Origin: Candidatus Babeliales bacterium
GTDB taxonomy: Bacteria > Babelota > Babeliae > Babelales > JBFXEV01
Length of the DNA stretch: 64,000 bases
Reading direction: 5' to 3'
Assembly: GCA_050179755.1 (NCBI GenBank)
Contig: JBFXEV010000001.1
Location: forward strand, 41,994 to 105,993
Shown: one piece after another, positions 14,536 through 35,266 of the stretch
Layout: each line of letters opens with the position of its first letter
Numbering within the stretch: the stretch's first letter is position 1
The notes under the pieces: generated by a model
What the model was told of the DNA's origin: nothing
What the model saw: only the letters and a program-made list of their open reading frames with translations
Databases searched by the model: none
Position numbers and translations under genes: made by a program

Positions 14536-16086
14536 ATGAACATACACCTCAAAAAAAATATATTTTTCCCTTTTCTTCTTAGTTTTACTCTCGTATGCCT
14601 TGCCCACGTCTATACACAAAAAAATGAAGCATCCTCCAAAATTATATACATTACCGAAACTGAAATTAACGCAGCTTCATTACAGAACGCTCATGGCTAT
14701 GTTATTAACAAGCCTGGCATATATATTTTGGAGAATGTTAATTGGAATGTAGCAAAGCCTGACAATTTTGCTTTAACCATTGCAACAGACAATGTACAGC
14801 TCGATGGTACAAATACACGTATTAAACAAATGGATTCTTTAATTAAACACGCTATTGCTATTCAAATACAAGAAAATTGTAAGAATATACAAATTAGTAA
14901 CGTTGTTTTTGATTCTCTTTCCGGTGGCGGCATATGGTGCCGTGGCAACAACACAAATATTATCATTAAAAACTGCAAATTTACTAATTGCGGCTATTTT
15001 GGCAACACACAACTAGATTCAAAAAATTTACCTTTTAATGCACCACGAGCGTGCACGCAAGGCATATTATTTGATGGAGGCCATGGCAAGCCAATTGTTA
15101 ATGCACAGGTAGTTGATTGCCTTTTTGCAGAATCCGGCATTCTGCGTACAGGTCAACAAGTTTTTGAATCAGATTGTGGTGCAGTACTTGCTTACCATGT
15201 ACATGACCTAACGATTAAAGGTTGCACTATTGATGGCTGTGTAGGCAAAAACACAGCCTATGCTATAAGCCTCATTGATATATCAAACGCATTAGTTTCC
15301 GATATATTTATCACTGATATTTTTTCAAGTGGCCATGCAGAAGGAATTTTTGCCTATGATGTTGATGGGCAAGTTATTGATGCATCGCAAACTGCTATTT
15401 TGTCTGGTTTGCCAGCGCATAAATATAGTTACATGCTTGATACGCATGACAGTTATAAGGAATTTGTGCTTCCTGATCCAAATTACCAGATAGAAGCCAA
15501 TCATCTAAAAGGTATAATACCCAAACATACGCAAATGATTGAAACCTTATTCAATGAACATAAATGGCGTGAATTTAGAACGCTTGGCAGATTAGTATGC
15601 CATCATGCAGATAAACGATCTGAAACTACAAGAATTTATGGAAAATGGGTAGAGCTTTTATGTGAACGAGTTCTTAATGTAAAAGTAAAAGTAGTGGGAG
15701 CATTTGCTAATTTATATGAAAACGGCAACATCCCGTTACCAGCACATCGTGACCAATATAAAAAATGGATTATTGGTTTAAGTTTTGGAGGTCCGAGAAC
15801 ATTAGAATTTGTGCCTGATGATCCTAGAGCTCAAATTGCATCGTTTGTAATGGATTCAGGTGACGTATTTATTTTTTCACCTGATGTAAATAATCGTTAT
15901 CAACATAGAATGCAAGAAGAACCAAGCAGCACTAGCCGCCGCATTAATCTCACCTATTTTATAGATATTTTACCAGGTCAAAATGCAAACAACTTAGTAC
16001 ACGCACCAAATATCAACGCTTCAATTATTCCTACCTATGAAGAAGCAGAAACTCTTTACAATCTACAAAAAGGAGCTGTTATATAA
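14536..16086 (+). CDS. Beta-helix N-terminal domain fused to an AlkB-like 2OG-Fe(II) dioxygenase
   Basis: N-terminal half resembles the upstream paralogues. C-terminal half has NLYENG..PAHRD, LSFGGPR, GDVFIF, YQH and RRINLT. Confidence 0.75.
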   Translation: MNIHLKKNIFFPFLLSFTLVCLAHVYTQKNEASSKIIYITETEINAASLQNAHGYVINKPGIYILENVNWNVAKPDNFALTIATDNVQLDGTNTRIKQMDSLIKHAIAIQIQENCKNIQISNVVFDSLSGGGIWCRGNNTNIIIKNCKFTNCGYFGNTQLDSKNLPFNAPRACTQGILFDGGHGKPIVNAQVVDCLFAESGILRTGQQVFESDCGAVLAYHVHDLTIKGCTIDGCVGKNTAYAISLIDISNALVSDIFITDIFSSGHAEGIFAYDVDGQVIDASQTAILSGLPAHKYSYMLDTHDSYKEFVLPDPNYQIEANHLKGIIPKHTQMIETLFNEHKWREFRTLGRLVCHHADKRSETTRIYGKWVELLCERVLNVKVKVVGAFANLYENGNIPLPAHRDQYKKWIIGLSFGGPRTLEFVPDDPRAQIASFVMDSGDVFIFSPDVNNRYQHRMQEEPSSTSRRINLTYFIDILPGQNANNLVHAPNINASIIPTYEEAETLYNLQKGAVI

Positions 16087-16156
16087 AAATAATTGTAACT
16101 CTTGCATTTAAGTGCCTCTTCTTGGCATACTACAAACAACAAAGCAAGAGGCTCCA

Positions 16157-17590
16157 ATGCAGCATCACCTCACTCTCTGCATCTTCACCATCACCATGCC
16201 AATCTTTACGATGGAACCTTTTCTCTTAACAGATCAAGTACCTCAACTTCACGAACTGTGCATGCGCCATATTGTAAAAGCCATAAGCTCTCATAAACCA
16301 GAATTTTGCCGTGACCGCGAGTTCCACATAGGCAAACTGCAACAAGAAAATGCTACACTTCTTGAACAAGAAACCTGTGAAGATCTTAGAATAAAACTTA
16401 AAACACTTATACTTGAATGTTACCATGCATACCTTGAAGGTTGCCCCTGGCAAGAAGTAAAACCAACGCTAACCCCGACAGCTTCTCTTCTTAATGATCC
16501 AACGTTTTGCTATGATTATGCACCAGACCAAAAACTGCTTGCAGCTTTTATTAAAACACAAAAACAAAAATCTCTTCTACAGCTCTTTAGTCTTAAAAAG
16601 AAAGCTTTAATCTCGTTAGTAAGCATGGATCTAAGTACGTATAATAATGTACATAGTATTAAATTTAGCCCTCGTGGATCATATGTAGCAGTAGCTTATG
16701 GTGAACCTAACCATCGCCTTGAACATGTACTTATTCCCATTATACAATGCGCTCCAGGCTACATGCAAAAACGGCGTTTCCACATGCCTTCACTAAAAAA
16801 AGTACATGTCTATTCTGTGCATTTCAGCCCTGATGAGAGATATTTAATTACTCGTTCACTCCATAAAGTAACAATCAGCGATTTATTAAGTGACCAAATG
16901 AAACACTCTGAGATTGTGCCAATTACTGGCACCATCAAAAAAGATTATGCGTATGTGATGATAAGCCCTACCAGTTACCATCTTGCAGCACGTCAATATG
17001 GAGGCACTATTGATATTTATTCATATGCCAATGGCACACCTTATTTAATCTCCAGATTTGTATCTAATTTTCTTAATAATAGATTTCATTGGATGCCTTG
17101 TGGCACCAAATTGCTTATACAAGAAGCAAATACCAATCTTTATTGGAGCCCCTACACAGATACTATGCAAAATCTCACCACGCGCTTTCCACTTATTCAT
17201 GATCATGTGATGGCGCACAGCCCATGCCAAAAATATCTTGCATATAGTTCGCCAGTTGGAACAGTAATACTTGATAGCAAACTAAATAAATATTGGATTC
17301 TTAGTAAATTTCTTCCAAGCAGAATGACCTTTGATAAGCAGAGCAACCTGAGCATATTGCAATCAGATGGCACTACTACCACCCATGCACCATATGAATA
17401 TGGTGCAATGTCATTACCACAACTTCTATCAGTATGTTGGCTTGCAAAAAGTGTGCTTAATCCACATAAAAATACCAGTGCATTAGATAGCCACCATGCT
17501 GCCCATTGTATTACTGCCACAGAGGGGTTTCAATCTTTGCCAAGGCCAATACAGCTAGTGTTTATAAAGCGGATTAAAGGAAAACTATAA
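16157..17590 (+). CDS. WD40/beta-propeller-like secreted protein with BC-box-like motif
   Basis: IKFSPRG, VHFSPDE, ISPTS and HSPCQ blade motifs. ATG at 16157 follows GAGG. Confidence 0.6.
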   Translation: MQHHLTLCIFTITMPIFTMEPFLLTDQVPQLHELCMRHIVKAISSHKPEFCRDREFHIGKLQQENATLLEQETCEDLRIKLKTLILECYHAYLEGCPWQEVKPTLTPTASLLNDPTFCYDYAPDQKLLAAFIKTQKQKSLLQLFSLKKKALISLVSMDLSTYNNVHSIKFSPRGSYVAVAYGEPNHRLEHVLIPIIQCAPGYMQKRRFHMPSLKKVHVYSVHFSPDERYLITRSLHKVTISDLLSDQMKHSEIVPITGTIKKDYAYVMISPTSYHLAARQYGGTIDIYSYANGTPYLISRFVSNFLNNRFHWMPCGTKLLIQEANTNLYWSPYTDTMQNLTTRFPLIHDHVMAHSPCQKYLAYSSPVGTVILDSKLNKYWILSKFLPSRMTFDKQSNLSILQSDGTTTTHAPYEYGAMSLPQLLSVCWLAKSVLNPHKNTSALDSHHAAHCITATEGFQSLPRPIQLVFIKRIKGKL

Positions 17591-18124
17591 TATATATTTT
17601 TTTAATACGCGATGCTGCGCGCCTTCAGCAGTAAGTTTAGACTCTTTTAGCACAAAAGAATTTATCTTAAAAGTGCATGAAGGAATATCAATACGTTCAA
17701 GTCTTTCTAAAAACTTAATTTGATCTTTAATAAATTTCACACGCGCAATGGTAATATGACTTAAAAAAGCACGATCTTCCACCACAGCATATTCTTTTGC
17801 AATGGATTGAATGTGCGCCACAAGCTCAAGCAATTCCTGGCCAAGTAAATCAATATACACTATTCTTAAGTCTTTATTTTGTGGCAAAATGCCTAATTGC
17901 CCTAATCTGACAGTAAAAGGGCTAAACTTAATTGCATCTAATGCAAGTCGTAGCGCACTAACTTTATTCTCAGGAACTTCGCCAAAAAAGTGCAACGTAA
18001 GATGCAACTGATCCCGTAGCACCAAGCGCAAATCACCACAACCAAGGTCTAATATTTTTCTTTGAATAGCAACTAATATATCTTTAACTTGCTCAGGAAA
18101 TTCCAGTGCAACAAAGATGCGCAT
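17585..18124 (-). CDS. thpR: RNA 2',3'-cyclic phosphodiesterase (2H family)
   Basis: MRIFVA start, HLTLHF and HITIAR 2H motifs. Confidence 0.9.
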   Translation of the reverse strand: MRIFVALEFPEQVKDILVAIQRKILDLGCGDLRLVLRDQLHLTLHFFGEVPENKVSALRLALDAIKFSPFTVRLGQLGILPQNKDLRIVYIDLLGQELLELVAHIQSIAKEYAVVEDRAFLSHITIARVKFIKDQIKFLERLERIDIPSCTFKINSFVLKESKLTAEGAQHRVLKKYIL

Positions 18125-19582
18125 TTACCCACCTTTAATTACTGCTAAAGGTGTCAAGCGCACAACTTTGCGCGCAATTTTAGATTTTTGCACCACATCA
18201 ACCACATCTTCTACGTCTTTATAAGCAATAGGTGCCTCTTCAGAAAGGCCTGCATCTGAATCACAACGAATTAGAATGCCATGCGCTTCAAGGTCTTTAC
18301 GTAATTCTGTACCACGAATAGTTTTTTTAGCTTTTGCCCGCGAAAGCCTACGCCCTGCTCCATGGCATGATGATCCAAATGCAACTTGCATACCTTCTTC
18401 TGTACCCACAAGTACATATGAAGACGTGCCCATGGTTCCAGGAATAAGAACTGGATGGCCGTATGCACGGTATTGCTCCGGAACCTCAGGATGCCCTGCT
18501 GGGAATGCACGCGTTGCGCCCTTGCGATGCACTAATAATTTTGTTGGTTTATCATTCAGAATATGTGTTTCTAATTTGCCCATGTTATGTGAAAGATCAT
18601 ACACCATAGACACTTTAGCATCTTTGCCCACTGTAGCCTCAAATGCTTCGCGCACCCAATGGCCAATCAAGTGCCGATTTGCCCATGCAAAATTTGCAGC
18701 GCCTTTCATAGCACTAAAATACTCTTGCGCTTCACGCGTTTGAAAGGGCGCACATACAAGCTCTCGGTCAGGTAATTCAATACCCCATTCTTTTACTTTT
18801 GGCATCATCAAACGCACATAGTCAGTGCATACTTGATGACCAAGTCCACGGGAGCCACAATGAATCATCACAACGACTTGATTGAGCTTTAAGCCAAAGG
18901 CTTGTGCAATTTTTGCATCAAAAATTTCATCAACACGTTGTACTTCAAGAAAGTGATTACCTGAACCTAAAGTTCCAAGTTGATCAGACCCTCTTTTTTT
19001 TGCTTGCTCAGAAATAGAACGCGGATCAGCATCAGGCATGCACCCATTTTCTTCACAACGGTCAATATCACCGAGCTGGCCATACCCTTGCGTAAGCATA
19101 TATGGCGCACCACCTTTAATAACGTTATCAAGCTCACCAAGAGATAATTTAACTTTGCCTCCTTGCCCCACGCCAGAGGGCACGCGTGCAAAAAGTTCAT
19201 CAGCAAGTTTGGGCAAATACGGTTTGAGTTCATCAGCATTCATATTTACCGCAAGCAAGCGAACGCCACAATTAATATCATAGCCAATGCCACCAGGAGA
19301 AATAACACCACCTTGATCAACAATTGTTGCTGCTACGCCGCCAATTGGAAAACCATATCCTTGATGAATATCTGGCATGGCCAGTGCACGCTTTGCAATA
19401 CCAGGAAGCGTTGCTACATTTGCAAGCTGCCATAATGAACGATCTTCTAAAATATCATCTATTATTGCTTCACTTGCAAATAAACGCGCGGGAACTTGCA
19501 TATCTGCTCTGAATTCTCTTGGAATTTCATAAACAGTTTCATCAAGTTTTATTAAATCTTTTTTCTTTACTTCTTGTTCCAT
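18125..19582 (-). CDS. rtcB: RtcB 3'-phosphate RNA ligase (long, archaeal/eukaryote-like type)
   Basis: MPDIHQGYGFPIG, YDINCG, GSGNHF, HCGSRG, HRKGAT, CHGAGR and EEAPIAYK. Confidence 0.95.
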   Translation of the reverse strand: MEQEVKKKDLIKLDETVYEIPREFRADMQVPARLFASEAIIDDILEDRSLWQLANVATLPGIAKRALAMPDIHQGYGFPIGGVAATIVDQGGVISPGGIGYDINCGVRLLAVNMNADELKPYLPKLADELFARVPSGVGQGGKVKLSLGELDNVIKGGAPYMLTQGYGQLGDIDRCEENGCMPDADPRSISEQAKKRGSDQLGTLGSGNHFLEVQRVDEIFDAKIAQAFGLKLNQVVVMIHCGSRGLGHQVCTDYVRLMMPKVKEWGIELPDRELVCAPFQTREAQEYFSAMKGAANFAWANRHLIGHWVREAFEATVGKDAKVSMVYDLSHNMGKLETHILNDKPTKLLVHRKGATRAFPAGHPEVPEQYRAYGHPVLIPGTMGTSSYVLVGTEEGMQVAFGSSCHGAGRRLSRAKAKKTIRGTELRKDLEAHGILIRCDSDAGLSEEAPIAYKDVEDVVDVVQKSKIARKVVRLTPLAVIKGG

Positions 19583-19590
19583 TTTAAAAC

Positions 19591-20028
19591 CTATATATCA
19601 AACACAATATCTACTTGATACCCATCATTAGTTTTAAGTATTTTAAGATCGTGATAAGTAACCGCTTTAATTTCAATGCCAAACCGTTTAACTGGCACAC
19701 CCTTAATCGTTGCTTCTAATGCGCGTTCATTAAATATGTGTACATCAACCGCAAGATAAGCCTCATTATGCACATCACTTAAATATAACGCTTCAGATAA
19801 AAAATCAATAAGGAGCAAATCAACTTCAGATGAAGCTATTTTAATAGTGTGATGCGCAGGTAATAATTGGCAAACCACTCGCTCATCTATAATCTTACAT
19901 TGAGGAACAACGGGCTCAATAGATTGGAACATACCAATAAGAGCATTAGAAAATAATTCAGACAATGATGCCCCATAAACCCGAATTTTTAAATCGGCTG
20001 TATGGGGCAACGCTTCAAAATCTCTCAT
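19591..20028 (-). CDS. Archease (RtcB activator)
   Basis: HTAD N-terminal motif, EIKAVTYH and terminal VFDI. Confidence 0.92.
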   Translation of the reverse strand: MRDFEALPHTADLKIRVYGASLSELFSNALIGMFQSIEPVVPQCKIIDERVVCQLLPAHHTIKIASSEVDLLLIDFLSEALYLSDVHNEAYLAVDVHIFNERALEATIKGVPVKRFGIEIKAVTYHDLKILKTNDGYQVDIVFDI

Positions 20029-20039
20029 GAATATCTTAT

Positions 20040-20600
20040 CTAGTAATTACCACAACCACTTGACCAACACGATGCACCGCAAGCCTCAGCAACTACTCTT
20101 TTTGGAACTTTAACAAGAACTGTTTTCCAATAACCTGGAAATATAATTTCTTCTGTTCTTATCTCATATTCATCTTCTTGAGGTCGAGTTGAAGCTCCTT
20201 CTGCCGTTGGCTTTTCTGCTACCATTACTCTTGCAGCAGCATTTAATTGTTCTTGAGATGCTACTCGAGCCACGCCAATAGCCGCAACCCTTGCCACTAA
20301 TCCTGAGCTGCCCGCATCCATTCTTTCTTGAGGTGCAGTGGCGACATGGTCTGTAGCATCTGTCATCGCAACAGCTGACGGTGCTTGAGCATGCAGATTG
20401 GTAATATCTTTAAGCGGAACTTTATTACTATCGGAAGAAGAAGAAAGCTGCGTACGGCCTTGGTCTGGTAAATCTGCCAATTCTTGTCTTGATGGTATTC
20501 TAGTAACAGTACCAGGAATAGCTACGCTGGGCAGCATTCCTTGTGCCACATCAAAAAATCCGAAAAAAACCAACCCGAAAAAAAACGAACGTTTGAGCAT
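20040..20600 (-). CDS. Hypothetical secreted low-complexity protein
   Basis: Signal-peptide-like N-terminus, Ala/Ser-rich body, Cys-rich tail. Confidence 0.6.
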   Translation of the reverse strand: MLKRSFFFGLVFFGFFDVAQGMLPSVAIPGTVTRIPSRQELADLPDQGRTQLSSSSDSNKVPLKDITNLHAQAPSAVAMTDATDHVATAPQERMDAGSSGLVARVAAIGVARVASQEQLNAAARVMVAEKPTAEGASTRPQEDEYEIRTEEIIFPGYWKTVLVKVPKRVVAEACGASCWSSGCGNY

Positions 20601-20773: not shown

Positions 20774-22234
20774 ATGAACAAATTTTGCTCTTTCATGTAC
20801 CTTATGCTTATATTTGCTTCACTAAACGCACACGAAAATAAACTACCCAGAGCGCGTTCAAAAGAACTGGCGTATGAACGCCACTTACTAAGTTCTTTTT
20901 GTTTTGACCAAACAATGGACCCAATTGTTTTTAAATATCTATTTTCAAATAATCTCCAGTATGCTCAAGATTTTGCAGATCGTCTTAATGCTATCATTAA
21001 AGTTTTTTTTAATCTCGTAAGCGCAGATATTTGTATGCGCACGCACGCATGCCTTATCTTTACCAAACTTCAGATTGAAGAACCCTATAATGGTACGCTG
21101 CAAAAAGTAATTAATGAACTTATCCCTCTCTATTTTGATTCCCATGGTTGCCTTGTGCATCTTGACGCACAAGACACAAAAACACGTAATTTTTGCATTG
21201 CACAGTTATTAAAAAATGGCATAGATAATGATACTTATAAAAAGCTTCTTCATATCTTTAATTTCAATGATGTGGCGTGCTATGAAGAAAAAACAAGCTC
21301 ATATATAAGTGAAAACCTCTATCATTTTGCTACAGGCGGCTGGCTGCCATCTATTACCTGGTACCCACATAACATTAAACAACGTATTGCTGAGCACGCG
21401 CACAATCGGCACATTGAAGAATTACTTACTTTATGCGTAGACACTGACTTTATTGTTGCTCATAGTTTTATTACTACGCATTCACACCCAGTATTACGCG
21501 AGCTTTTTACTGAAAGTTATAAAGACTATACGCAAAAATACTGTAATGCCTGCGGCATTATCAAAGAATATGAAGATGATCCTTATTGGGCATCGCTCTC
21601 ACCCGAAGATCAAGCGCACTATAGCAATGATTTAGAAAAAATTATGGCGCTAAATACGACATTAAAAAAGCGATCCGAACAAAAAAGGAAACTCCAAGAA
21701 AATTGGGCAATAGATGAACATGCACCTACCTATGTGCATGCAACGCTTTTTGAACTCCTTGAATTTCTTGAAACAACCAGTTATTGTATAGGCCATATAT
21801 TTGAAATCATGCAAAAATATTCCGCTGACGAACAGCAAGAATTGCAAAAAGCTCTCTTTCTCAAAAACGGGATCCTTAAACAATTTGCTCTTTTTAGCGA
21901 TTCTTCACGTTATTCTTTCCCGCAGCAACTTTTTTCTGAACCAGATATGCTTCTTGAAATAAATAAACTTTTCTATCTTCAGCATATGCATCAAAATTCA
22001 TATGAAGGTATTATTGCTCGTATTACCTTAGATCAACTGCATGCATTCTATGATCCGCAACTTAACAAAATGCCCAAATTGATTGATTATGATTTAGAGA
22101 CGATGCAAAATCCCAGCTTTTTTACACGCATGCAATCAAGAATAGAGAAAATTACAAATCGCATGCCATATTACACAACAACCTATACTTCGATTAAGAA
22201 GGCAATTGCATATATCATAAGTAATTTTTCTTAA
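20774..22234 (+). CDS. Secreted protein homologous to the central domain of the downstream toxin (no toxin domain)
   Basis: Signal peptide; colinear blocks RTHACLIF, ELIPxYFD, LKNGI, ATGxWLPSxTWYP and ALFLxNGILK shared with 22299..25130. Confidence 0.8.
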   Translation: MNKFCSFMYLMLIFASLNAHENKLPRARSKELAYERHLLSSFCFDQTMDPIVFKYLFSNNLQYAQDFADRLNAIIKVFFNLVSADICMRTHACLIFTKLQIEEPYNGTLQKVINELIPLYFDSHGCLVHLDAQDTKTRNFCIAQLLKNGIDNDTYKKLLHIFNFNDVACYEEKTSSYISENLYHFATGGWLPSITWYPHNIKQRIAEHAHNRHIEELLTLCVDTDFIVAHSFITTHSHPVLRELFTESYKDYTQKYCNACGIIKEYEDDPYWASLSPEDQAHYSNDLEKIMALNTTLKKRSEQKRKLQENWAIDEHAPTYVHATLFELLEFLETTSYCIGHIFEIMQKYSADEQQELQKALFLKNGILKQFALFSDSSRYSFPQQLFSEPDMLLEINKLFYLQHMHQNSYEGIIARITLDQLHAFYDPQLNKMPKLIDYDLETMQNPSFFTRMQSRIEKITNRMPYYTTTYTSIKKAIAYIISNFS

Positions 22235-22298
22235 CCATTGCTTAAATAAGAAAACTATAGTACAAATAGTAGGTCGGTATGTACATCACAGGAGCCAT

Positions 22299-25130
22299 AT
22301 GCTACAAAGACCTCGATTACGAAAATTAGCTTTATGTTTATTGATATTAATTCTATTCGATGAAATAGTTATACAAAAATGTAAACCAATTGCTCCTGCT
22401 GTGGCGTTAGCACCAATAGCCTATGAAACAATCTTACTCAGTGCTGCTGCAGCAACTTCAATTTATAGTGCATACTTGTTAACACAAATTTCAGACCCTG
22501 TCTTGCGCACTCATAGTCAAACATTGCCAACTATAGCTCAAGAACTAAAAGAAATTTTCCCAAGCACACCTTCTCATGTCCCTCACTCGCCAGATTTTAT
22601 CGCACAGGCTTTAGAAGAATCTGTTGGTCAGGCTTCCTATAAAAAAGCTTATAAAAGCCAATTCACTAAAATCCAAGAGCAATCTTTAATAAACACAATC
22701 AATACAAATATAGTCCATCCTGCTATCGCACGTAATAAGCATATTAACTCAATACCTTCACAACAATTAAGTACAACGCCACTTACACCCTCATTACCAA
22801 GTTCACCAATACAATTTACCTATCAACCAAATGCAATCCATTTTGAAGTCCCACATATCAATACATATGGATCAATAGCGGTAACTGAGGAAAGACCACT
22901 ATCCTCAGTTCGTCAACAAATCATTAACAATTGCCATGAACATGCACTAGATGAATTTCTTTTCAATGAACGGTGCAAACATATTCCAGGTTATCTGGCT
23001 AATTTTACCGAGCAGCTTAACGAGATCATCTTAGTTTTTCATGATTTAGTAAGTGAGGATATCTATAAACGCACACATGCTTGCCTTATTTTTCCTCATA
23101 TAAGTATTGAAGGGCCATTTAACTATACGCTGCAAAATGTAATTCATGAGCTCATTCCCTTCTACTTTGACACTGAAGGAAAATTGGAAAGGCTGTTTCC
23201 GCATAACAAAGTAACTCATGATTTTATTATCGCAAAATTTCTTAAAAATGGTATCAATAGATCCACGTACCTACAACTTCTTAAAACCTTCAATTTTAAG
23301 GAAGTCCTTGAACATGAAGAAAACCTCGGGTCTTATCTTTGGAATGGGGTCAAACATACGGCAACTGGGGCTTGGTTGCCAAGCCTCACTTGGTATCCTC
23401 GCGATATTAAAAAATTAATCAGCCACAACAACTTTAATCATGGGCTTGAACAAATTTTAACGCTCTGTAGTAAAAATAAATTTGTAGAAGCACAAAATAT
23501 TGTTAACTCCGCGGGGCTTGAAGTTCTTGCGTGGCAAGAACTCTACCAACAATGTTATCATGCATTCAAAAGTAAATACTGTGATAGTTATGGCATATTA
23601 ATCGAGTATCTAAGCGATCCTCTCTGGGCGAATGCCACTAACGAAGCTAAAGCTGAACTTGCAAGAAACATAATGGATGTCACTACCTTTAATAATGCGC
23701 TTGCAGTTCGCTCAATTCAAAAAAAGTCTATAGAAAAGTCTTGGGGCATAGCATCAGACGCACCTACGTGTGTGCATAACGCGGTCTATTGTCTTATAGA
23801 CCTTCTAGGAACAGGTACCGAATTTATTGATAAAGTTCATGAATTAATCGCACAAGAAGATAAATTTAAACGAGATGCATTAATTGAAGCGCTTTTTTTA
23901 CCAAACGGTATCTTAAAAGATTTTAGCCATTTTTCTGCAATTGATACGTATCATTTTCCAAAAGATATTCTTACTCAACCAAAATTGCTAAAGAAAATAA
24001 ATACGTTATTTTATCAGCAACATATATTTGCTGGAAGTGAGCAGGGAACTAATGCTGCTATTAAATTAAATACACTTCAAGCGATATATGATACTAGATT
24101 CTCAAGTAACATTCCACAAGCAAAAACTAGCGAATACTGGCCATTTGACCAAGAGAATACAAACTTTAAGGAACAAATACTCAAACGAGCCCTTGCAGTG
24201 AGTCACTACCTTGCTGATTATTCTAATACAATGTATAAATCAGTGCGCAATGCTATTCTGGATATTGCACCCTCTTTATTCCTTGCAAATGAAAATACTG
24301 AACCAACGCCACAGAATGAGCCGCCGCCTGGCGAACAAGTTCCTTTTGAGGAAGATGCACCAACGCCTGAAACAAAGCCAGATTCAGAAGAAGAGGTAAT
24401 TGCTCCAGAAGTAGTTTTTGAACCAACTAAGCCAAGTAAATCGACCCCTTCAAGCTCTGGAAGTAATTTATTAGATCCAAGCAATGGAACTCCACCTCTT
24501 GAAAATGAACCCTCAATATATTATATTCCACGTGAACTACCTAATGATCCTGAGGATTGGGCCAAAGAGAAGAATGGAATAAAACCTTGGGTTCCACCTT
24601 CAAGTAATTGGAAGTCTGAACAAGCAAAGGCTTATTTGCAATTTCTTGGGCAAGGATTTTTGCGCACGGGCTTGGCAGCAATGGGTATTCCCTTTGAAGA
24701 CTTTGAATACGCTTTAGAAATATTTAAAAATATTCCTGGTTTCTTATCCAACAATAGTGCATTCCAACAAATCATACGCTATTGCTATAGACAGCCAATT
24801 AAAAACTGGCATCAAATTAAAGGTTTTATTTATGAAATTCAGACGGCATTACGGGTTGACACAAATCGAGAGCAAATAATTGAGTTTGGTAGAAAAGTGC
24901 CAAGCGGGGAAATTGATATTATTACAACGACACGTTTTATTGAATGTAAAAATATTAAATGGGAAAATAATATTGACGCAATTAATGATTGTAAGAATAC
25001 TATTGGAAAACAAATAAAACATATTCATGAAGAATTAGGCAAAAGGCTTACAGTCTTTTCAAAAGAACCGCTACCACAAGAATTAAAAAATTGGTTTATT
25101 AAAAAAAATATAGAATATTTCGAGGGTTAA
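22299..25130 (+). CDS. Putative polymorphic toxin: signal/TM, carrier domain, Pro/Glu linker, C-terminal restriction-endonuclease-fold nuclease
   Basis: C-terminal KGFIYE...GEIDII...FIECKNIKW fits the PD-(D/E)xK pattern, and a small gene abuts the stop codon. Confidence 0.7.
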   Translation: MLQRPRLRKLALCLLILILFDEIVIQKCKPIAPAVALAPIAYETILLSAAAATSIYSAYLLTQISDPVLRTHSQTLPTIAQELKEIFPSTPSHVPHSPDFIAQALEESVGQASYKKAYKSQFTKIQEQSLINTINTNIVHPAIARNKHINSIPSQQLSTTPLTPSLPSSPIQFTYQPNAIHFEVPHINTYGSIAVTEERPLSSVRQQIINNCHEHALDEFLFNERCKHIPGYLANFTEQLNEIILVFHDLVSEDIYKRTHACLIFPHISIEGPFNYTLQNVIHELIPFYFDTEGKLERLFPHNKVTHDFIIAKFLKNGINRSTYLQLLKTFNFKEVLEHEENLGSYLWNGVKHTATGAWLPSLTWYPRDIKKLISHNNFNHGLEQILTLCSKNKFVEAQNIVNSAGLEVLAWQELYQQCYHAFKSKYCDSYGILIEYLSDPLWANATNEAKAELARNIMDVTTFNNALAVRSIQKKSIEKSWGIASDAPTCVHNAVYCLIDLLGTGTEFIDKVHELIAQEDKFKRDALIEALFLPNGILKDFSHFSAIDTYHFPKDILTQPKLLKKINTLFYQQHIFAGSEQGTNAAIKLNTLQAIYDTRFSSNIPQAKTSEYWPFDQENTNFKEQILKRALAVSHYLADYSNTMYKSVRNAILDIAPSLFLANENTEPTPQNEPPPGEQVPFEEDAPTPETKPDSEEEVIAPEVVFEPTKPSKSTPSSSGSNLLDPSNGTPPLENEPSIYYIPRELPNDPEDWAKEKNGIKPWVPPSSNWKSEQAKAYLQFLGQGFLRTGLAAMGIPFEDFEYALEIFKNIPGFLSNNSAFQQIIRYCYRQPIKNWHQIKGFIYEIQTALRVDTNREQIIEFGRKVPSGEIDIITTTRFIECKNIKWENNIDAINDCKNTIGKQIKHIHEELGKRLTVFSKEPLPQELKNWFIKKNIEYFEG

Positions 25131-25556
25131 ATGGGAATCATGCATAGCGTGAAAATTAAAGTTCATGCCTTCTTTCAAGAAAACTCAATTGAATTAATAC
25201 TACAGCAAGCCGTAGACGCTCGGTATAAACTGTATATTGCAGAAGATTATGAATATTTCAAGCCTGAAAAAAATTCAATAATTTCGCCTCGAACTGCTAC
25301 AAAAACAATTTTCAAAATATATCAGGAAACTAACTATGGTGGCCCGATTATTGCAAAACTTGATGAAACGGAAGTTCTTTTATCTTTTAATTTCGAAAAT
25401 CCATACCTTATAGTTAAAATAACACTTTTTTCAAATGACTGGGAAAAGGAATTCCCAAATGGCGAAAGTCAAAAAGATTTTGCCCGTTACATTTCCTTTT
25501 TGCTCAAAATCACACAGGATTTCCCAATAAGCAATTTGGAAATTAAATACCTTTAA
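25131..25556 (+). CDS. Putative cognate immunity protein (paralogue 1)
   Basis: Starts immediately after the toxin stop; 141 aa; family motif NGESQKDFARYISxLLxITQDFP. Confidence 0.7.
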   Translation: MGIMHSVKIKVHAFFQENSIELILQQAVDARYKLYIAEDYEYFKPEKNSIISPRTATKTIFKIYQETNYGGPIIAKLDETEVLLSFNFENPYLIVKITLFSNDWEKEFPNGESQKDFARYISFLLKITQDFPISNLEIKYL

Positions 25557-25579
25557 GCTTAATTATATTTGAGGGCTAA

Positions 25580-26005
25580 ATGGGAATCATGCACACAATT
25601 AAGATAGTCCTTAAAGATTACCTAAAAGAAGAATCTGTTGAATCAATATTAAAGAGAGCAATTGAAGCTAATTGCGGTATATATATATCAGAAGATTACA
25701 TATTTTTTGAAGATGAAAAAAATCATGCTATTTCTGCTGATATAGCCACTAAAAAAATTTTTAAAACAAACCACGAAACGGATGATGTTAAAGGGATTAT
25801 TATTAAAATTAACAATACAGAAATTGCTTTATCATTTAATCATGATGATTCAAATCTTGTTGCGTATTTAACTCCATTAGTATCCCGCTCAGAAAGAGAT
25901 TTTCTCAATGGCGAATCTCAAAAAGATTTTGCCCGCTATATTTCTTTGTTGCTGACTATCACTCAAGATTTTCCATTAATAGATATAGAAATACTGTACC
26001 AATAA
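25580..26005 (+). CDS. Putative immunity paralogue 2
   Basis: MGIMH start and NGESQKDFARYISLLLTITQDFP. Confidence 0.7.
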   Translation: MGIMHTIKIVLKDYLKEESVESILKRAIEANCGIYISEDYIFFEDEKNHAISADIATKKIFKTNHETDDVKGIIIKINNTEIALSFNHDDSNLVAYLTPLVSRSERDFLNGESQKDFARYISLLLTITQDFPLIDIEILYQ

Positions 26006-26059
26006 ATTAATTTATAATGTTTAAAACTTAAAACATAATACTTACTAAATAGAAACACT

Positions 26060-26464
26060 ATGGAAAAAATACCTACTGCTAGAATCATCCTTAATGATTA
26101 CTTAGTAAAAGAATCAGTTGAATTAATATTAAAAAGAGCACTAGAAGATCACTGTACATTATATATCTTAGAAGAACAGAATAACCACCTTGCTTCTGCA
26201 CAAATAGCAACTCAGTTTATTTTTAAAATGCACAACGAAACTAATCAAGGAGGCACAATCATTGTAAAAGTTGAAAATACCACGATGCTATTATCCTTTA
26301 AATCTAATTTACCAGATCTGCTAGTCGATATAACACCCCTTTCTAATCATTGGAAAAAAACATTCTTGAATGGCGAATATCAAATTGACCTTGCACGATA
26401 TCTTTCGTTGCTATTATTAATTACTCAAGATTTTCCCATTATTAATATAGAAATTTTACACTAA
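26060..26464 (+). CDS. Putative immunity paralogue 3
   Basis: DYLVKESVELILKRA and NGEYQIDLARYLSLLLLITQDFP. Confidence 0.7.
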   Translation: MEKIPTARIILNDYLVKESVELILKRALEDHCTLYILEEQNNHLASAQIATQFIFKMHNETNQGGTIIVKVENTTMLLSFKSNLPDLLVDITPLSNHWKKTFLNGEYQIDLARYLSLLLLITQDFPIINIEILH

Positions 26465-26514
26465 CCCCAACCTTCGGATGATATTAAAATGAGCAAGCTA
26501 CTTATGAGGGCTAA

Positions 26515-26927
26515 ATGGGCTTAGATCGCATAATCAAATTAACATTCACAGAACCATTAGAAAAAAATCACATTAGAAGTATTGTTACAAAACCATAGAC
26601 TTAGGTTCTGTATTTTATAATTATCCAGAAGAAGAATTTGCATGTAATCTTCTTTCTACAACGGATATTGTAGAACACTTCTATCAAAAAAATAACAACG
26701 GGGACTTTGGTGGAGGCCTTTTTGTGTATATTGATTCTAGTTATTTTATGCTCTCCATATATCAACAAAAAAACAAAAAAGCTACATTGAGTATATTCCT
26801 TGAAGTAGATTATTGGGAACATCCCCAATTTGAGTATGATTGTGACTACGAAAGATATATTAGATTTTTACTTAAAATTATTCAGCAAGTGCCATTGCAC
26901 ACTATCTCAATTGAATTCGAAATGTAA
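26515..26927 (+). pseudogene. Putative immunity paralogue 4, single frameshift
   Basis: ATG at 26515 gives MGLDRIIKL...RSIVTK. One extra A in the run at 26589-26592 joins it to TIDLGSVFY...DYERYIRFLLKIIQQVP, ending at 26927. Confidence 0.65.
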
Positions 26928-26931
26928 TAAG

Positions 26932-27408
26932 ATGCATAATATACCATTAATACAAATACAATTAGCATGTAGCTTCAGTGAAGAATATATTACACTTATT
27001 TTAAAACGTCTTCATAACGTAAATTGCTTCTTTTTTCATCTTTCTGAGAAAGAGAAAAGCCCTGAAATAAGAAATAAAATTTCATTAGAAACTGCTGCAG
27101 AATATCTCAGTAATCCATTAAACCGGGAGCCCAATATCCTGGGTATTTTAGTAAATATCAAAACTTATTATTTTGTACTTACTATTTATAGCAATGATTC
27201 ATTAGCAAGCGCTTTATGCTTAGGCATTTCACCTTTGGAAGCAACTACAGACATTAGTCCTTGGGTTTTATCATTATTAAATATTGTTCAGGGCGCGCCT
27301 ATTGAATCTATAAGCACCATCAATAAGGGATCGTCATCTTATTGGGAGTATGGTCGAATTGCTGAATCCAAAAGATTACGCGAAGAAGAAACAAACAAAT
27401 CTTCTTGA
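26932..27408 (+). CDS. Putative immunity paralogue 5 (most diverged)
   Basis: MHNIPLIQI..EEYITLILKR..NC aligns with paralogue 3 (MEKIPTARI..ESVELILKR..HC). DISPWVLSLLNIVQGAP matches DFARYISLLxITQDFP. Confidence 0.55.
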   Translation: MHNIPLIQIQLACSFSEEYITLILKRLHNVNCFFFHLSEKEKSPEIRNKISLETAAEYLSNPLNREPNILGILVNIKTYYFVLTIYSNDSLASALCLGISPLEATTDISPWVLSLLNIVQGAPIESISTINKGSSSYWEYGRIAESKRLREEETNKSS

Positions 27409-33608: not shown

Positions 33609-34055
33609 ATGCAAAGCTGGCATTATTATCTGATTATCACCTTGGTTTTCTTTCTAAATAATACGCTGCATACTTTATTTGGAATACCTAGCGCATTATT
33701 ATTAGGCGTAACTACGTTTATCTTAGTACAACCTCAAAACTCTGCTATGCTTAAAATATATGCCATTGCACTTGTTTGCTTTGATTATTTCGTTTGGCTT
33801 GACCAACTTGGCCCCCCTCTGCTTTATTTAGCCCCTCTTTATCTACTTGCCCCTGCCCTTAATCAACTATTAATGCCCAGGGCAAGAAGCCTGCTACCTT
33901 ACGCTTTTTTTTCTAGTGCCTATTTGGTACAGATTTATACCCTGGAACCCTTAACTACCGGGGTTTTACCACCTTTTGCCTGTACAATTTGGCCTTTTTG
34001 TGCTATAGTACTAGGGATATATAGCTTTGAAATATATAGATCAACAGCAGTTTAG
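33609..34055 (+). CDS. Hypothetical polytopic membrane protein (possibly MreD-like)
   Basis: Uniformly hydrophobic ~150-aa ORF; its 3' end overlaps the rnpB 5' stem. Confidence 0.45.
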   Translation: MQSWHYYLIITLVFFLNNTLHTLFGIPSALLLGVTTFILVQPQNSAMLKIYAIALVCFDYFVWLDQLGPPLLYLAPLYLLAPALNQLLMPRARSLLPYAFFSSAYLVQIYTLEPLTTGVLPPFACTIWPFCAIVLGIYSFEIYRSTAV

Positions 34056-34450
34056 GTAATCGCTTTCTCTTTTAAAAATTGAGAGAAAGAGGAAAGTCCG
34101 GACTCCAAATAAACACGGTACCATGCAAGAACTTGTTTCAAGCATGGGCAGGGTAAAAAAACACTATCCTGACGGCAAGTGCCACAGAAAATAACCACCT
34201 TAACCCGCTCATCCTGCGCTTGTCGAAGGATTTGAGCGGATCAGGTAAGGGTGAAAATGTGCGGTAAGAGCGCACAAAACAAAGCAGCAATGTTTTGTTT
34301 GGGCAAACCCTCCGGGAGCAAGACAAACAGTGCGTTCGGTTGTTTATTCCGATTTAAAACGTGCGGGTACGTTGCATAGATAAATGGTTACCATATTACG
34401 CATCGCAAGATGTGCAATAACAGAATCCGGCTTATTAATTGTTGTTGATC
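34039..34450 (+). ncRNA. rnpB: RNase P RNA (type A)
   Basis: GAGGAAAGTCCGG, AGTGCCACAGAAA, AAGGGTGAAA..GCGGTAAGAGCGCAC, GGCAAACCC..GAGCAAG, AGATAAATG and ACAGAATCCGGCTTAT. The terminal stem is GATCAACAGCAG/TTGTTGTTGATC. Confidence 0.95.
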
Positions 34451-34540: not shown

Positions 34541-35266
34541 ATGAAATTCATACCTTCGATGAAACTAACAAACTTCCTCTGGGCATTACCCTTCATTTGT
34601 TTTATAAGCACTTATACTATTCTCACGCTTATTTTTACCGCACCTCCAATTCCAGCACCATCACTTATTGGCAAACAATTGCCAGAAGCGTTTACCATTC
34701 TTTCGCACCATAATTTAAATCCACGCATCTTACATGAGCAAGTTGATAATGATGTGCCTGCTGGTACCATTTTGAGCCAAACCCCGCTTGCTGGCCAAAA
34801 AATTAAACCTTATCAACAGCTTTTTTTAACGGTTAGCAAAAAAGCAGAAAAAACTATTGCACCATCCGTGCAAGGCAAAACATATGAACAAGTTGTGGAA
34901 CAACTTACCAAAGCTCATATAAAACATAAACGATATGATCTTGCAAGCAAAAAACCAATGGGTACTATTATTGCACAATTGCCTGCAGCAGGCGCACCTC
35001 TTGAACAAAACAGCATGATTCTTTATGTATCGCAAGGAAATAATAAGCCAATTTTATGCCCCCAATTTATTGGCAAAACGGTTAAAGAGGTAACCCAATT
35101 TTTAGAAACATATAATATAGCACCCGAAGTATATCATGCACATACAATGTATGATAATCATTCATGTGCAAACTGCGTAGTACTCAATCAACAACCCCTT
35201 GCAGGAACTATTATTGACCTTCATCAAGGTTTGACTGTACAGTTGAAGGTGACTCACTGCATGTAA
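34541..35266 (+). CDS. PASTA domain protein
   Basis: N-terminal TM and three repeats of the type PSLIGK...GTILSQTP.AG. Confidence 0.85.
   Translation: MKFIPSMKLTNFLWALPFICFISTYTILTLIFTAPPIPAPSLIGKQLPEAFTILSHHNLNPRILHEQVDNDVPAGTILSQTPLAGQKIKPYQQLFLTVSKKAEKTIAPSVQGKTYEQVVEQLTKAHIKHKRYDLASKKPMGTIIAQLPAAGAPLEQNSMILYVSQGNNKPILCPQFIGKTVKEVTQFLETYNIAPEVYHAHTMYDNHSCANCVVLNQQPLAGTIIDLHQGLTVQLKVTHCM

What the first reader, a model, noticed from the sequence alone, without database searches (positions are those of the whole stretch)
20774..27408. Candidate new polymorphic toxin system: toxin-less carrier, REase-fold toxin and a five-member immunity array
Seen in sequence: the 943-aa ORF has a hydrophobic N-terminus, a ~430-aa central domain, a Pro/Glu/Ser-rich linker (~24285-24560) and a C-terminal KGFIYE..EID..FIECK domain. 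Five short paralogues follow with no gap after the stop. Established: E-x-D...E-x-K is the PD-(D/E)xK nuclease pattern, and carrier-linker-toxin followed by a small gene is the hallmark of polymorphic toxins. Inference: the central domain shows no RHS, CDI, LXG, PAAR or MuF signature that I can recognise, so this may be an undescribed signal-peptide-exported toxin class. It could act in interbacterial competition in a host-associated lineage.
Basis: partly seen in the sequence, partly recalled or inferred. Interest (0 to 1): 0.85.

Follow-up and report, generated by a model that had tools for sequence, protein, structure and literature searches.

The report
Secreted nuclease toxin with immunity array
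A small-genome bacterium that probably lives inside protists carries a large exported protein ending in a DNA/RNA-cutting toxin domain, followed by five copies of a likely antidote gene; this is a new lineage-specific version of a known kind of bacterial weapon.

Summary
ORFs, paralogy and motifs are as described, except that the fourth small gene is frameshifted.

- **Toxin:** the last ~145 aa of the 943-aa protein form a PD-(D/E)xK nuclease. The model has pLDDT 88 with an alpha-beta-beta-beta-alpha-beta core. E846/D873/E882/K884 are near-invariant in 143 relatives. The best fold hits are Card1, NucS, Can2 and a CdiA-CT toxin.
- **Spread:** 188 cluster representatives carry the domain, almost always at the extreme C-terminus (137 of 146). 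Carriers vary and mostly have signal-peptide-like N-termini.
- **Immunity:** in 5 of 6 bacterial loci a homologue of the small genes directly follows the toxin, always with two or more copies or domains.
- **Host lineage:** relatives and synteny point to Candidatus Babeliales (Dependentiae).

Not shown: different toxin families on this carrier, the export route, the target, or binding (the complex predictor never ran).

Sec-exported polymorphic toxins with lineage-specific N-domains, REase toxins and polyimmunity loci were described in 2012. I rate this a new variant of a known kind: the carrier, the immunity family and the phylum are new. Interest is moderate.

The parts
20774..22234 (+). 486-aa paralogue of the carrier: a signal-peptide-like N-terminus followed by the central domain only, with no linker and no toxin
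   Evidence: ORF; 38% identity over 455 aa to residues 199-653 of the 943-aa protein, E 1e-97; hydrophobic 10-mer at residues 8-17, KD 2.22. No Pfam or NCBIfam family. Only itself in the 5.8-billion protein collection.
22299..22865 (+). N-terminal region of the 943-aa protein (aa 1-189): basic n-region, strongly hydrophobic stretch, then a second conserved Ala-rich hydrophobic stretch
   Evidence: hydropathy. Conserved in only three relatives: P0003 47%, P0028 65%, P0071 39%. Whether it is a cleaved signal peptide or a membrane anchor was not resolved.
22866..24278 (+). Central 'carrier' domain (aa 190-660), no known family
   Evidence: Only sub-threshold Pfam DUF1548 (E 0.0027-0.0067, 17-18.5 bits against a cutoff of 22.7). 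The Atlas gave nothing usable. An iterated profile finds it in 14 toxin-domain representatives of the 151 sequences in the search file, in both window genes, and weakly in L001.
24279..24560 (+). Pro/Glu/Ser-rich linker (aa 661-754)
   Evidence: 20 P, 16 E, 9 S of 94. It is the least conserved part against the orthologue P0003 (37%).
24561..24800 (+). Helical pre-toxin part of the C-terminal module (aa 755-834)
   Evidence: Model helices at residues 19-29, 33-40, 45-55 and 67-76 of the 189-aa piece. 70% identical in P0003 and also present in P0071, which ends right after it. Most relatives align from about residue 46 of the piece onward.
24801..25130 (+). PD-(D/E)xK nuclease core (aa 835-943) plus stop. 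Catalytic codons: E846 24834-24836, D873 24915-24917, E882 24942-24944, K884 24948-24950
   Evidence: alpha-beta-beta-beta-alpha-beta core, pLDDT mostly above 90. E 138/139, D 143/143, E 142/143, K 143/143; fold hits are PD-(D/E)xK nucleases; codon coordinates.
25131..25556 (+). Immunity candidate 1 (141 aa). Its ATG directly abuts the toxin stop, so it is the likely cognate
   Evidence: Homologues directly follow the toxin gene in L001, L002, L003, L004 and L006. Model pLDDT 91.1. No hydrophobic N-terminus.
25580..26005 (+). Immunity paralogue 2 (141 aa)
   Evidence: 50% identical to copy 1. HMM E 1.9e-41.
26060..26464 (+). Immunity paralogue 3 (134 aa)
   Evidence: 46-51% identical to copies 1 and 2. 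HMM E 3.7e-41.
26515..26927 (+). Immunity paralogue 4, a pseudogene: the reading frame shifts between 26577 and 26596
   Evidence: The C-terminal piece matches the family HMM at E 1.1e-12.
26932..27408 (+). Immunity paralogue 5 (158 aa from ATG 26932), divergent, with a charged tail that overlaps the start of the DciA ORF
   Evidence: BLASTP E 1.4e-4 to copy 4 and 0.002 to copy 2. (E 6.6e-10 to an HMM built without it). (the next ORF is DciA).

Best explanation
The locus is a toxin-immunity system of the polymorphic-toxin kind in a Babeliales (Dependentiae) bacterium.

The 943-aa protein is targeted to the Sec machinery by its hydrophobic N-terminus. It carries a lineage-specific helical central domain and a disordered Pro/Glu-rich linker. 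It ends in a ~145-aa module: a short helical pre-toxin part plus a metal-dependent PD-(D/E)xK nuclease with catalytic residues E846, D873, E882 and K884.

The gene that starts at the toxin's stop codon encodes a cytoplasmic alpha+beta protein. This protein most likely binds and blocks the nuclease, both in the producer and in kin. The four further paralogues (one decayed) form a homogeneous polyimmunity array that broadens protection to variant toxins of the same family made by related strains.

The most likely use is conflict between related bacteria sharing a protist host cell or vacuole. The 486-aa paralogue is an exported copy of the carrier domain alone. It may help or compete at the step that the carrier domain serves, such as surface retention, receptor binding or entry.

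**Shown:** fold, catalytic residues, extreme C-terminal position, many carriers, conserved toxin-immunity adjacency, arrays, and lineage.

**Inferred:** nuclease activity and its substrate (DNA or RNA), binding by the immunity protein, Sec export, the role of the central domain, and the target organism.
For: **Fold**
- The AlphaFold2 model of the last 189 aa has pLDDT 88.0 and pTM 0.82, with helix 83-101, strands 106-113, 116-122 and 125-130, helix 138-157 and strand 162-167.
- Foldseek's best PDB hits are PD-(D/E)xK nucleases: Card1 6wxw (E 5.3e-3), NucS 2vld, Cdn1, Can2, VC1899, the CdiA-CT toxin 4g6v_A (E 0.028) and EndoMS.
- The best PDB sequence-profile hit is the Cdn1 CARF nuclease, aligned over the E/D/ExK motifs (E 0.12).

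**Catalytic set**
- Across 143 relatives: E92 138/139, D119 143/143, E128 142/143, K130 143/143.

**Toxin-module behaviour**
- 188 representatives at E<=1e-3. The 150 listed are 74-1375 aa long.
- In 137 of 146 full domain hits the domain ends within 5 aa of the protein's end.
- 74 proteins have at least 150 aa upstream of the domain. These N-regions fall into 18 single-linkage groups.
- 2 of 60 long relatives carry a pretoxin HINT domain, and 1 of 60 reaches 24.8 bits on Tox-REase-3 against a cutoff of 25.
- 8 of 35 short relatives hit Tox-REase-3 at E<=0.1, best 2.3e-5.

**Export**
- 41 of 68 N-termini have a strongly hydrophobic 10-mer in the first 40 aa, against 5 of 68 in a control stretch. 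The window's two proteins do too.
- In Chromulinavorax, 44% of CDS have signal peptides and a Sec system is the proposed route (PMC6561590, passages).

**Immunity**
- A homologue directly follows the toxin in 5 of the 6 bacterial loci fetched: L001, L002, L003, L004 and L006.
- Copy numbers per locus are: L001 four (one frameshifted), L002 two, L003 one fused two-domain protein, L004 two or more, L006 four.
- The toxin stop and the first immunity ATG abut.
- The immunity proteins have no hydrophobic N-terminus.
- The best fold hit of the immunity model is PA0821/7DRG (E 5.3e-3, TMq 0.40). PMC9635880 calls this an immunity protein related to TsiV3, which blocks a PD-(D/E)xK-type T6SS nuclease (passage).

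**Mosaicism**
- P0028 is 65% identical in the N-region but 41% in the nuclease core. The orthologue P0003 shows the reverse pattern, 47% against 61-70%.

**Composition**
- The toxin C-terminal module and immunity genes have GC 0.29-0.33, against 0.387 for the window.
Against: - No Foldseek hit reaches E<=1e-3 for either model, and TM-scores are 0.36-0.49. The fold assignment therefore leans on topology plus motif.
- The window's own domain gets no Tox-REase hit in Pfam, only UPF0102 at E 0.036.
- No homologue of the central domain with a different toxin family was found. The defining 'polymorphism' is seen only as divergent alleles of one family.
- The orthologue P0003 has a better-conserved C-terminus than carrier, which is not what diversifying selection predicts at that distance.
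- One bacterial locus (L005) has the toxin without a detectable immunity gene.
- The N-terminus of the 943-aa protein has two hydrophobic stretches. It could be a membrane hairpin that leaves the bulk of the protein in the cytoplasm.
- Obligate intracellular bacteria are said usually to aim such toxins at the host (PMC3482391).
- Toxin-immunity identities co-vary only weakly: Spearman 0.57 over 15 non-independent pairs, and 0.47 (p 0.09) without the closest pair.
Confidence: 0.6

Rival explanations
1. Host-directed effector. The nuclease is exported to degrade or manipulate the protist host's DNA or RNA, for example to scavenge nucleotides. The downstream protein is only a self-protecting inhibitor, in the manner of barnase-barstar. 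The extra copies cover the genome's own several toxin paralogues.
For: - The lineage is an intracellular parasite of protists with many signal-peptide-bearing nucleases proposed to break down the host (PMC6561590 passages).
- Zhang et al. state that intracellular bacteria mostly aim such toxins at hosts.
- One MAG, MFD02553, has two toxin loci (L002 and L004), so a genome can hold several toxins.
- L005's toxin has no adjacent immunity gene.
Against: - The same paper takes adjacent immunity genes in endosymbionts (Odyssella, Simkania, Rickettsia bellii URI toxins) as the sign of intraspecific conflict.
- Arrays of 2-5 divergent immunity domains sit next to a single toxin in all five immunity-bearing loci.
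- One self-inhibitor would suffice for self-protection. No second toxin copy lies in this 64-kb window.
Confidence: 0.25
2. Not a weapon. The protein is a membrane-anchored or periplasmic housekeeping nuclease, for example for DNA uptake, nutrient acquisition or defence against foreign DNA. The small genes are unrelated lineage-specific paralogues.
For: - Two hydrophobic N-terminal stretches could anchor the protein.
- PD-(D/E)xK domains serve many non-toxin roles. The best fold hits are CRISPR-ancillary and repair nucleases.
Against: - The small-gene family is tied to the toxin domain across five loci with different carriers.
- The domain sits at the extreme C-terminus on many unrelated carriers.
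- Two relatives carry PT-HINT.
- No PADLOC defence model matches the toxin or the immunity protein.
Confidence: 0.08
3. A decaying remnant. The locus is a relic of a once-active system, and the toxin or its export is no longer functional.
For: - One of the five immunity copies is frameshifted.
- Relatives show a deleted central domain (P0028) or a missing nuclease core (P0071).
- L001 also has a frameshifted immunity copy.
Against: - The 943-aa ORF is intact and all four catalytic residues are kept.
- The orthologue P0003 conserves the C-terminal module at 61-70%.
- Immunity copies 1-3 are intact.
Confidence: 0.05

Closest known systems
Sec/T2SS-exported polymorphic toxins with lineage-specific N-terminal domains (Neisseria MafB with MAFB-N, Microscilla-N toxins, Amoebophilus APD1/APD2 proteins), as defined in Zhang et al. 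2012 (PMC3482391, passages read)
   Same: - Signal-peptide-like N-terminus, then a lineage-restricted globular domain, a linker and a C-terminal toxin, with an immunity gene directly downstream.
- An accessory gene upstream. MafA lies upstream of MafB; here a carrier paralogue lies upstream.
- Found in a host-associated bacterium.
   Different: - The central domain matches none of those families in Pfam.
- The upstream gene is a paralogue of the carrier itself, not a lipoprotein partner.
- Variation of toxin families on this carrier was not found.
- The phylum is Dependentiae. No paper in the library holds both 'Dependentiae' and 'polymorphic toxin' (0 papers).
Tox-REase-3 (Pfam PF15647), a restriction-endonuclease-fold polymorphic-toxin domain
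   Same: - PD-(D/E)xK fold at the C-terminus.
- The [KR]ExD motif given for Tox-REase-3 matches this family's consensus: R/K 87 of 143, E/D 136 of 143, D 143 of 143.
- 8 of 35 short and 1 of 60 long relatives give sub-threshold hits.
   Different: - The window's protein gives no hit at E<=10 and has G-E-I-D rather than [KR]ExD.
- The last motif is E-C-K, not ExQxK.
- Partner immunity proteins are not Imm-SUKH or Imm7: no Pfam family in 4 window and 13 locus immunity proteins.
- The listed taxa for Tox-REase-3 are proteobacteria and firmicutes.
CdiA-CT/CdiI of Burkholderia pseudomallei (PDB 4g6v) and T6SS VRR-Nuc effectors TseV/TsiV (PMC9635880)
   Same: - C-terminal PD-(D/E)xK-type toxin domains neutralised by a protein encoded immediately downstream.
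- 4g6v_A is a fold hit of the toxin model (E 0.028, TMt 0.47).
- The TsiV3-like immunity protein PA0821 is the best fold hit of the immunity model.
   Different: - Delivery there is by T5SS or T6SS. No TPS, FHA, PAAR, Rhs or VgrG signature is present here.
- Fold similarities are weak (E above 1e-3, TM below 0.5).
- There is no detectable sequence similarity.
Homogeneous polyimmunity loci (Zhang et al. 2012, section read)
   Same: - Tandem, same-strand, closely spaced paralogous immunity genes, some only distantly related.
- One relative has a fused two-domain 'polyimmunity protein' (L003).
   Different: - The array here is attached directly to a full-length toxin gene rather than standing alone.
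- The immunity family is not one of those listed.
- That paper reports extended arrays (four or more genes) only from proteobacteria, bacteroidetes, firmicutes and actinobacteria.

Membership tests
PD-(D/E)xK (restriction endonuclease-like) nuclease superfamily | Core alpha-beta-beta-beta-alpha-beta fold | tested here: met
   AlphaFold2 model with pLDDT 88, showing helix 83-101, three strands 106-130, helix 138-157 and strand 162-167.
PD-(D/E)xK (restriction endonuclease-like) nuclease superfamily | Acidic residue in the first helix, D at the second strand, (D/E)xK in the third strand | tested here: met
   E846, D873 and E882-x-K884 are present and conserved in 138/139, 143/143, 142/143 and 143/143 relatives.
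PD-(D/E)xK (restriction endonuclease-like) nuclease superfamily | Structural similarity to solved members | tested here: inconclusive
   The top hits are all superfamily members (Card1, NucS, Cdn1, Can2, CdiA-CT, EndoMS). However, the best E is 5.3e-3, TMq is 0.36-0.49, and there are 0 hits at E<=1e-3.
PD-(D/E)xK (restriction endonuclease-like) nuclease superfamily | Metal-dependent nuclease activity | not testable with these tools
   This needs an enzyme assay. Whether the substrate is DNA or RNA remains open.
Pfam Tox-REase-3 (PF15647) | Score at or above the gathering cutoff (25 bits) | tested here: not met
   The window domain gives no hit at E<=10. The best relative, P0011, scores 24.8 bits. 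8 of 35 short relatives hit at E<=0.1.
Pfam Tox-REase-3 (PF15647) | Motifs [KR]ExD, K, ExQxK (from PMC3482391) | tested here: inconclusive
   The first motif fits the family consensus but not the window protein, which has GEID. The last motif here is ECK, not ExQxK.
Pfam Tox-REase-3 (PF15647) | Partner immunity of the Imm-SUKH or Imm7 type | tested here: not met
   No Pfam family for the window's small proteins (E<=1) or for 13 locus immunity proteins (E<=0.01).
Polymorphic toxin systems (sensu Zhang et al. 2012) | Toxin domain at the extreme C-terminus of a multidomain exported protein | tested here: met
   The domain ends within 5 aa of the C-terminus in 137 of 146 full domain hits. Hydrophobic N-termini occur in 41 of 68 proteins against 5 of 68 in the control (a heuristic only).
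Polymorphic toxin systems (sensu Zhang et al. 2012) | Immunity gene immediately downstream | tested here: met
   Stop and start codons abut. The adjacency is conserved in 5 of 6 bacterial loci. Binding itself was not tested.
Polymorphic toxin systems (sensu Zhang et al. 2012) | Conserved N-terminal part with different toxin domains at the C-terminus among homologues | tested here: inconclusive
   Only one toxin family was seen on this carrier. P0003 has the same C-terminus. P0028 has a divergent allele (N-region 65% against core 41%). P0071 ends before the core, and the 486-aa paralogue has no toxin. The homologue set was found mainly through the toxin domain, so it is biased.
Polymorphic toxin systems (sensu Zhang et al. 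2012) | Orphan toxin cassettes downstream for recombination | tested here: not met
   No second toxin-domain match in the window or downstream in the loci (toxin HMM on six-frame translations; tblastn).
CDI (T5SS), Rhs/PAAR (T6SS), LXG/WXG (T7SS), MuF toxins | Signature N-terminal or repeat domains | tested here: not met
   None appears in the 943-aa protein or in 60 long relatives. Those 60 were scanned out of 67 representatives of 400 aa or more; the other 7 were left out for the size limit.

The most novel reading that the evidence does not exclude
Babeliales, obligate intracellular parasites of protists with no known contact-dependent secretion system, fight each other inside host cells with a large, lineage-wide family of Sec-exported nuclease toxins. 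The uncharacterised helical central domain would be a new self-contained delivery module for receptor binding and entry into a rival cell, in the way colicin domains work. The toxin-less 486-aa paralogue would be a secreted helper or decoy for that step. The attached 2-5-member immunity arrays would record an arms race within the host cell.
Probability: 0.25. Interest if true: 0.75.

Novelty: new variant of a known kind. Interest (0 to 1): 0.52.

Why it matters
- Dependentiae are known almost only from genomes, and their proteins are mostly unannotated. One relative in NCBI is labelled 'hypothetical protein [Candidatus Babeliales bacterium]'.
- This locus gives a function to a family of at least 188 protein clusters: a C-terminal nuclease toxin. 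It also names its partner, a new immunity family.
- It suggests that intracellular parasites of protists compete with their own kind. The 2012 survey regarded this as a rare exception among intracellular bacteria.
- It offers a compact, well-modelled toxin-immunity pair and a carrier domain of unknown fold for experiments on how a Sec-exported toxin reaches its target.

Tried and rejected
**Toxin-immunity complex prediction.** Nothing was folded, so binding is untested.

**Central domain**
- Pfam and NCBIfam gave only sub-threshold DUF1548. I treat it as chance, because the three close relatives do not hit it.
- Two Atlas searches gave no usable hit. The Atlas's own models are poor, with pLDDT 0.37-0.38.
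- Two word-indexed searches found only one homologue plus self. That collection missed P0071, so it is not exhaustive.
- I did not model the central domain.

**Immunity protein.** The word-indexed search found only itself.

**Other sequence searches**
- PDB sequence searches with the toxin domain gave nothing significant.
- PADLOC matched neither toxin nor immunity. The 486-aa protein gave a weak CARF_PDDEXK hit (E 3e-4), which I left as unexplained.
- Plasmid and phage collections hold no match to the toxin domain.
- Promoter and terminator scans were at or near shuffle level and not informative.
- An iterated search with the N-terminal 190 aa found only the three close relatives, so there is no wider shared leader motif.

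**Errors and corrections**
- The first related-loci call failed because the alignment was too diverse. It was repeated with 12 closer sequences.
- In some searches my query for the fifth small gene was translated one base out of frame, so those runs say nothing about it. This was corrected.
- One search failed for the same frame slip, and for a badly formed search term.

**Not checked.** The window's own genome was not among the genome-contig hits.
Full report
**What is there**

The region holds seven same-strand reading frames.
- 20774-22234 encodes a 486-aa protein.
- 22299-25130 encodes a 943-aa protein.
- Five small genes follow, at 25131-25556, 25580-26005, 26060-26464, 26515-26927 and 26932-27408.

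The 486-aa protein is a paralogue of residues 199-653 of the long protein: 38% identity over 455 aa, E 1e-97. It ends where the long protein's linker begins.

The long protein has five parts.
- A strongly hydrophobic N-terminus, followed by a second, weaker hydrophobic stretch.
- A central domain at residues 190-660.
- A linker at residues 661-754 with 20 Pro and 16 Glu in 94 residues.
- A helical pre-toxin part at residues 755-834.
- A nuclease core at residues 835-943.

The toxin's TAA is followed at once by the ATG of the first small gene.

Small genes 1-3 are 46-51% identical to each other. The fourth is broken by a frameshift between 26577 and 26596. The fifth is divergent. Both the fourth and the fifth match an HMM built from the other members (E 1.1e-12 and 6.6e-10).

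**The C-terminal domain is a PD-(D/E)xK nuclease**

Pfam gives the window's domain only a sub-threshold match to UPF0102 (E 0.036).

A full HMMER scan of 1.84 billion representatives found 188 proteins at E<=1e-3 and 61 at E<=1e-10.

An alignment of 35 short members (A2) gave an AlphaFold2 model with pLDDT 88.0 and pTM 0.82. Its order of elements is helix 83-101, strands 106-113, 116-122 and 125-130, helix 138-157, then strand 162-167. This is the canonical core.

The catalytic positions fall where expected. They are nearly invariant in 143 relatives: E 138/139, D 143/143, E 142/143 and K 143/143. In the window protein they are E846, D873, E882 and K884.

Foldseek's best PDB hits are all members of this superfamily: Card1, NucS/EndoMS, Cdn1, Can2, VC1899, AF1548 and the CdiA-CT toxin of Burkholderia pseudomallei. 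E-values are only 5e-3 to 3e-2, and none is below 1e-3. The best sequence-profile hit in the PDB is the Cdn1 nuclease at E 0.12, aligned across the motifs.

Because toxins of this fold include RNases as well as DNases, the substrate is open.

**It behaves as a portable toxin module**
- In 137 of 146 full domain hits the domain ends within 5 residues of the protein's end.
- The proteins listed range from 74 to 1375 aa.
- Of 74 proteins with at least 150 aa upstream of the domain, the upstream parts fall into 18 single-linkage BLAST groups. One loose group holds 50.
- Of 60 long relatives scanned in Pfam (60 of the 67 that are 400 aa or longer), 55 have no family at E<=1e-3. Two have a pretoxin HINT domain, and one reaches 24.8 bits on Tox-REase-3 against a cutoff of 25. 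None has RHS, PAAR, LXG, TPS or MuF.
- Eight of 35 short relatives hit Tox-REase-3 at E<=0.1, best 2.3e-5.
- A crude hydrophobicity test finds a signal-peptide-like stretch in 41 of 68 N-termini, against 5 of 68 in a control stretch.

**The small genes are the toxin's conserved partners**

A scan of one genome per species returned seven loci. Four are titled Candidatus Babeliales, two 'uncultured bacterium' and one Methanophagales archaeon. The archaeal match is only partial.

In five of the six bacterial loci, the gene starting at or overlapping the toxin's stop is a homologue of the window's small genes. In every one of those five there are two or more immunity domains.

| Locus | Immunity content downstream of the toxin |
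|---|---|
| L001 | four copies, one frameshifted |
| L002 | two copies |
| L003 | one fused two-domain protein of 289 aa |
| L004 | two copies before the contig ends |
| L006 | four copies |
| L005 | none detectable |

The carriers in these loci do not resemble the window's carrier, apart from a weak match in L001. The pairing therefore follows the toxin domain, not the carrier.

The family has no Pfam match. It also had no hit in the word-indexed protein collection other than itself.

Its model (pLDDT 91.1) is an alpha+beta fold with no PDB match at E<=1e-3. The best hit is PA0821/7DRG (E 5.3e-3, TMq 0.40). A passage of PMC9635880 describes PA0821 as an immunity protein related to TsiV3, which blocks a PD-(D/E)xK-type T6SS nuclease. 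That is a lead, not a match.

The small proteins lack hydrophobic N-termini, as expected for cytoplasmic inhibitors.

Toxin and first-immunity identities co-vary weakly: Spearman 0.57 over 15 non-independent pairs, and 0.47 without the closest pair.

**The carrier**

The central domain has no known family. The evidence is a sub-threshold DUF1548 hit only and no usable Atlas result. Word-indexed searches found one orthologue, P0003: 897 aa, 47% identity, same architecture.

Among the toxin-domain representatives, an iterated profile finds the central domain in 14 proteins.

Three close relatives show mosaicism.
- P0003 keeps the C-terminal module better (61-70%) than the carrier (47-49%).
- P0028 keeps the N-region at 65%, has lost most of the central domain, and carries a 41%-identical nuclease core.
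- P0071 has the carrier and the pre-toxin part but ends before the core.

I found no central-domain protein with a different toxin family. My homologue set came mostly through the toxin domain, so that question stays open.

**Organism**

The window is chromosomal, with housekeeping genes plus ankyrin, TPR and WD40 proteins. Its own proteins occur on a contig of 1.53 Mb.

It is collinear with the Babeliales MAG locus L005. Eight ORFs match in order at 30-58% identity, including Tmk, HolB, RtcB and archease. One toxin-domain relative is annotated in NCBI as a hypothetical protein of Candidatus Babeliales. I therefore place the window in Babeliales (Dependentiae), by inference.

**How it most likely works**

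The 943-aa protein enters the Sec pathway and is exported or surface-retained through its lineage-specific domains. The C-terminal nuclease is the killing part. The product of the abutting gene blocks it in the producer. The further paralogues extend protection to variant toxins from related strains.

The arrays attached to single toxins in all five immunity-bearing loci are the main reason to prefer conflict between related bacteria over a purely host-directed role. Zhang et al. use the same logic for Odyssella, Simkania and Rickettsia bellii (passage).

The host-directed reading remains a serious rival. These bacteria live inside protists and are thought to secrete nucleases (passages of PMC6561590). 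L005 also lacks an adjacent immunity gene.

Still inferred: export, entry into a target, substrate and binding. The complex predictor never ran.

**Comparison with what is known**

Zhang et al. 2012 was read as passages. It already describes:
- Sec/T2SS-exported polymorphic toxins with lineage-specific N-terminal domains;
- ten or so Tox-REase families, including Tox-REase-3 with motifs [KR]ExD and ExQxK and partners Imm-SUKH and Imm7;
- homogeneous polyimmunity loci and polyimmunity proteins.

This locus fits that frame. It differs in four ways.
- The carrier domain is new.
- The immunity family is new.
- The nuclease subfamily only grazes Tox-REase-3. The window protein does not hit the model, and its last motif is ECK.
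- The phylum is new for such systems.

No paper in the library holds both 'Dependentiae' and 'polymorphic toxin' (0 papers). The six papers holding 'Babeliales' and 'toxin' are, by their titles in the search listing, microbiome surveys.

That review also states that extended polyimmunity arrays were seen only in four other phyla, and that intracellular bacteria mostly lack immunity genes. Attached arrays in Babeliales therefore extend the picture.

**Verdict**

This is a real and well-supported toxin-immunity locus. The claim of an undescribed class is too strong. I rate it a new variant of a known kind, with moderate interest.

Noticed in passing
window 10329-12332 and 12391-14385 (+): Two tandem paralogues of 667 and 664 aa, 46% identical, with signal-peptide-like N-termini and no Pfam family. 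They may be surface or secreted proteins of the same variable region.
   Followed up: partly
window 17585-20028 (-); L005 11654-13855: LigT, RtcB and archease (RNA repair genes) lie directly upstream of the toxin locus. The syntenic Babeliales locus L005 has its own short toxin between HolB and RtcB. Whether RNA repair next to a possible RNase toxin is meaningful or only conserved gene order was not tested.
   Followed up: no
L001 4251-5624; L003 3-1412 and 6052-6837: AAA ATPases with signal-peptide-like N-termini sit directly upstream of the toxin genes in two loci. They are 36% identical to each other. They are absent from the window.
   Followed up: partly
L005 8419-11593 (-): Six tandem small paralogues with nearly identical signal peptides occupy the place where other loci have immunity genes. 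They do not match the immunity HMM.
   Followed up: partly
L007 5043-8360: A 1105-aa protein of a Methanophagales archaeon, with CarboxypepD_reg and Ig-like domains, has a partial match to the toxin domain near its C-terminus (HMM positions 29-121, E 1.2e-10). No immunity homologue lies nearby.
   Followed up: partly
window 20774-22234: The 486-aa carrier paralogue gives a weak PADLOC hit to a CARF-PD-(D/E)xK model (E 3e-4, 18.2 bits, residues 108-197). This is unexplained and may be chance.
   Followed up: no
window 24561-27408: The toxin module and the immunity genes are the most AT-rich part of the window: GC 0.29-0.33 against 0.387 overall and 0.43 for RtcB. This is in line with a mobile or fast-evolving cassette.
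   Followed up: partly
window 25443-26454: The 3' ~86 nt of immunity genes 1-3 are 74-79% identical at the DNA level, while the rest has diverged further. The conserved C-terminal part holds the family's one invariant Asp (D116 of copy 1).
   Followed up: no
window 1528-2559, 14536-16086, 16112-17590, 35211-36104: Ankyrin-repeat, 2OG-Fe(II) oxygenase and WD40-like proteins, typical of host-associated bacteria.
   Followed up: no
window 34044-34449 (+): Bacterial RNase P RNA class A, 199 bits. It is the only Rfam match in the window.
   Followed up: no
window 20040-20600 (-): A 186-aa ORF with a signal-peptide-like N-terminus and no family lies between archease and the toxin locus.
   Followed up: no
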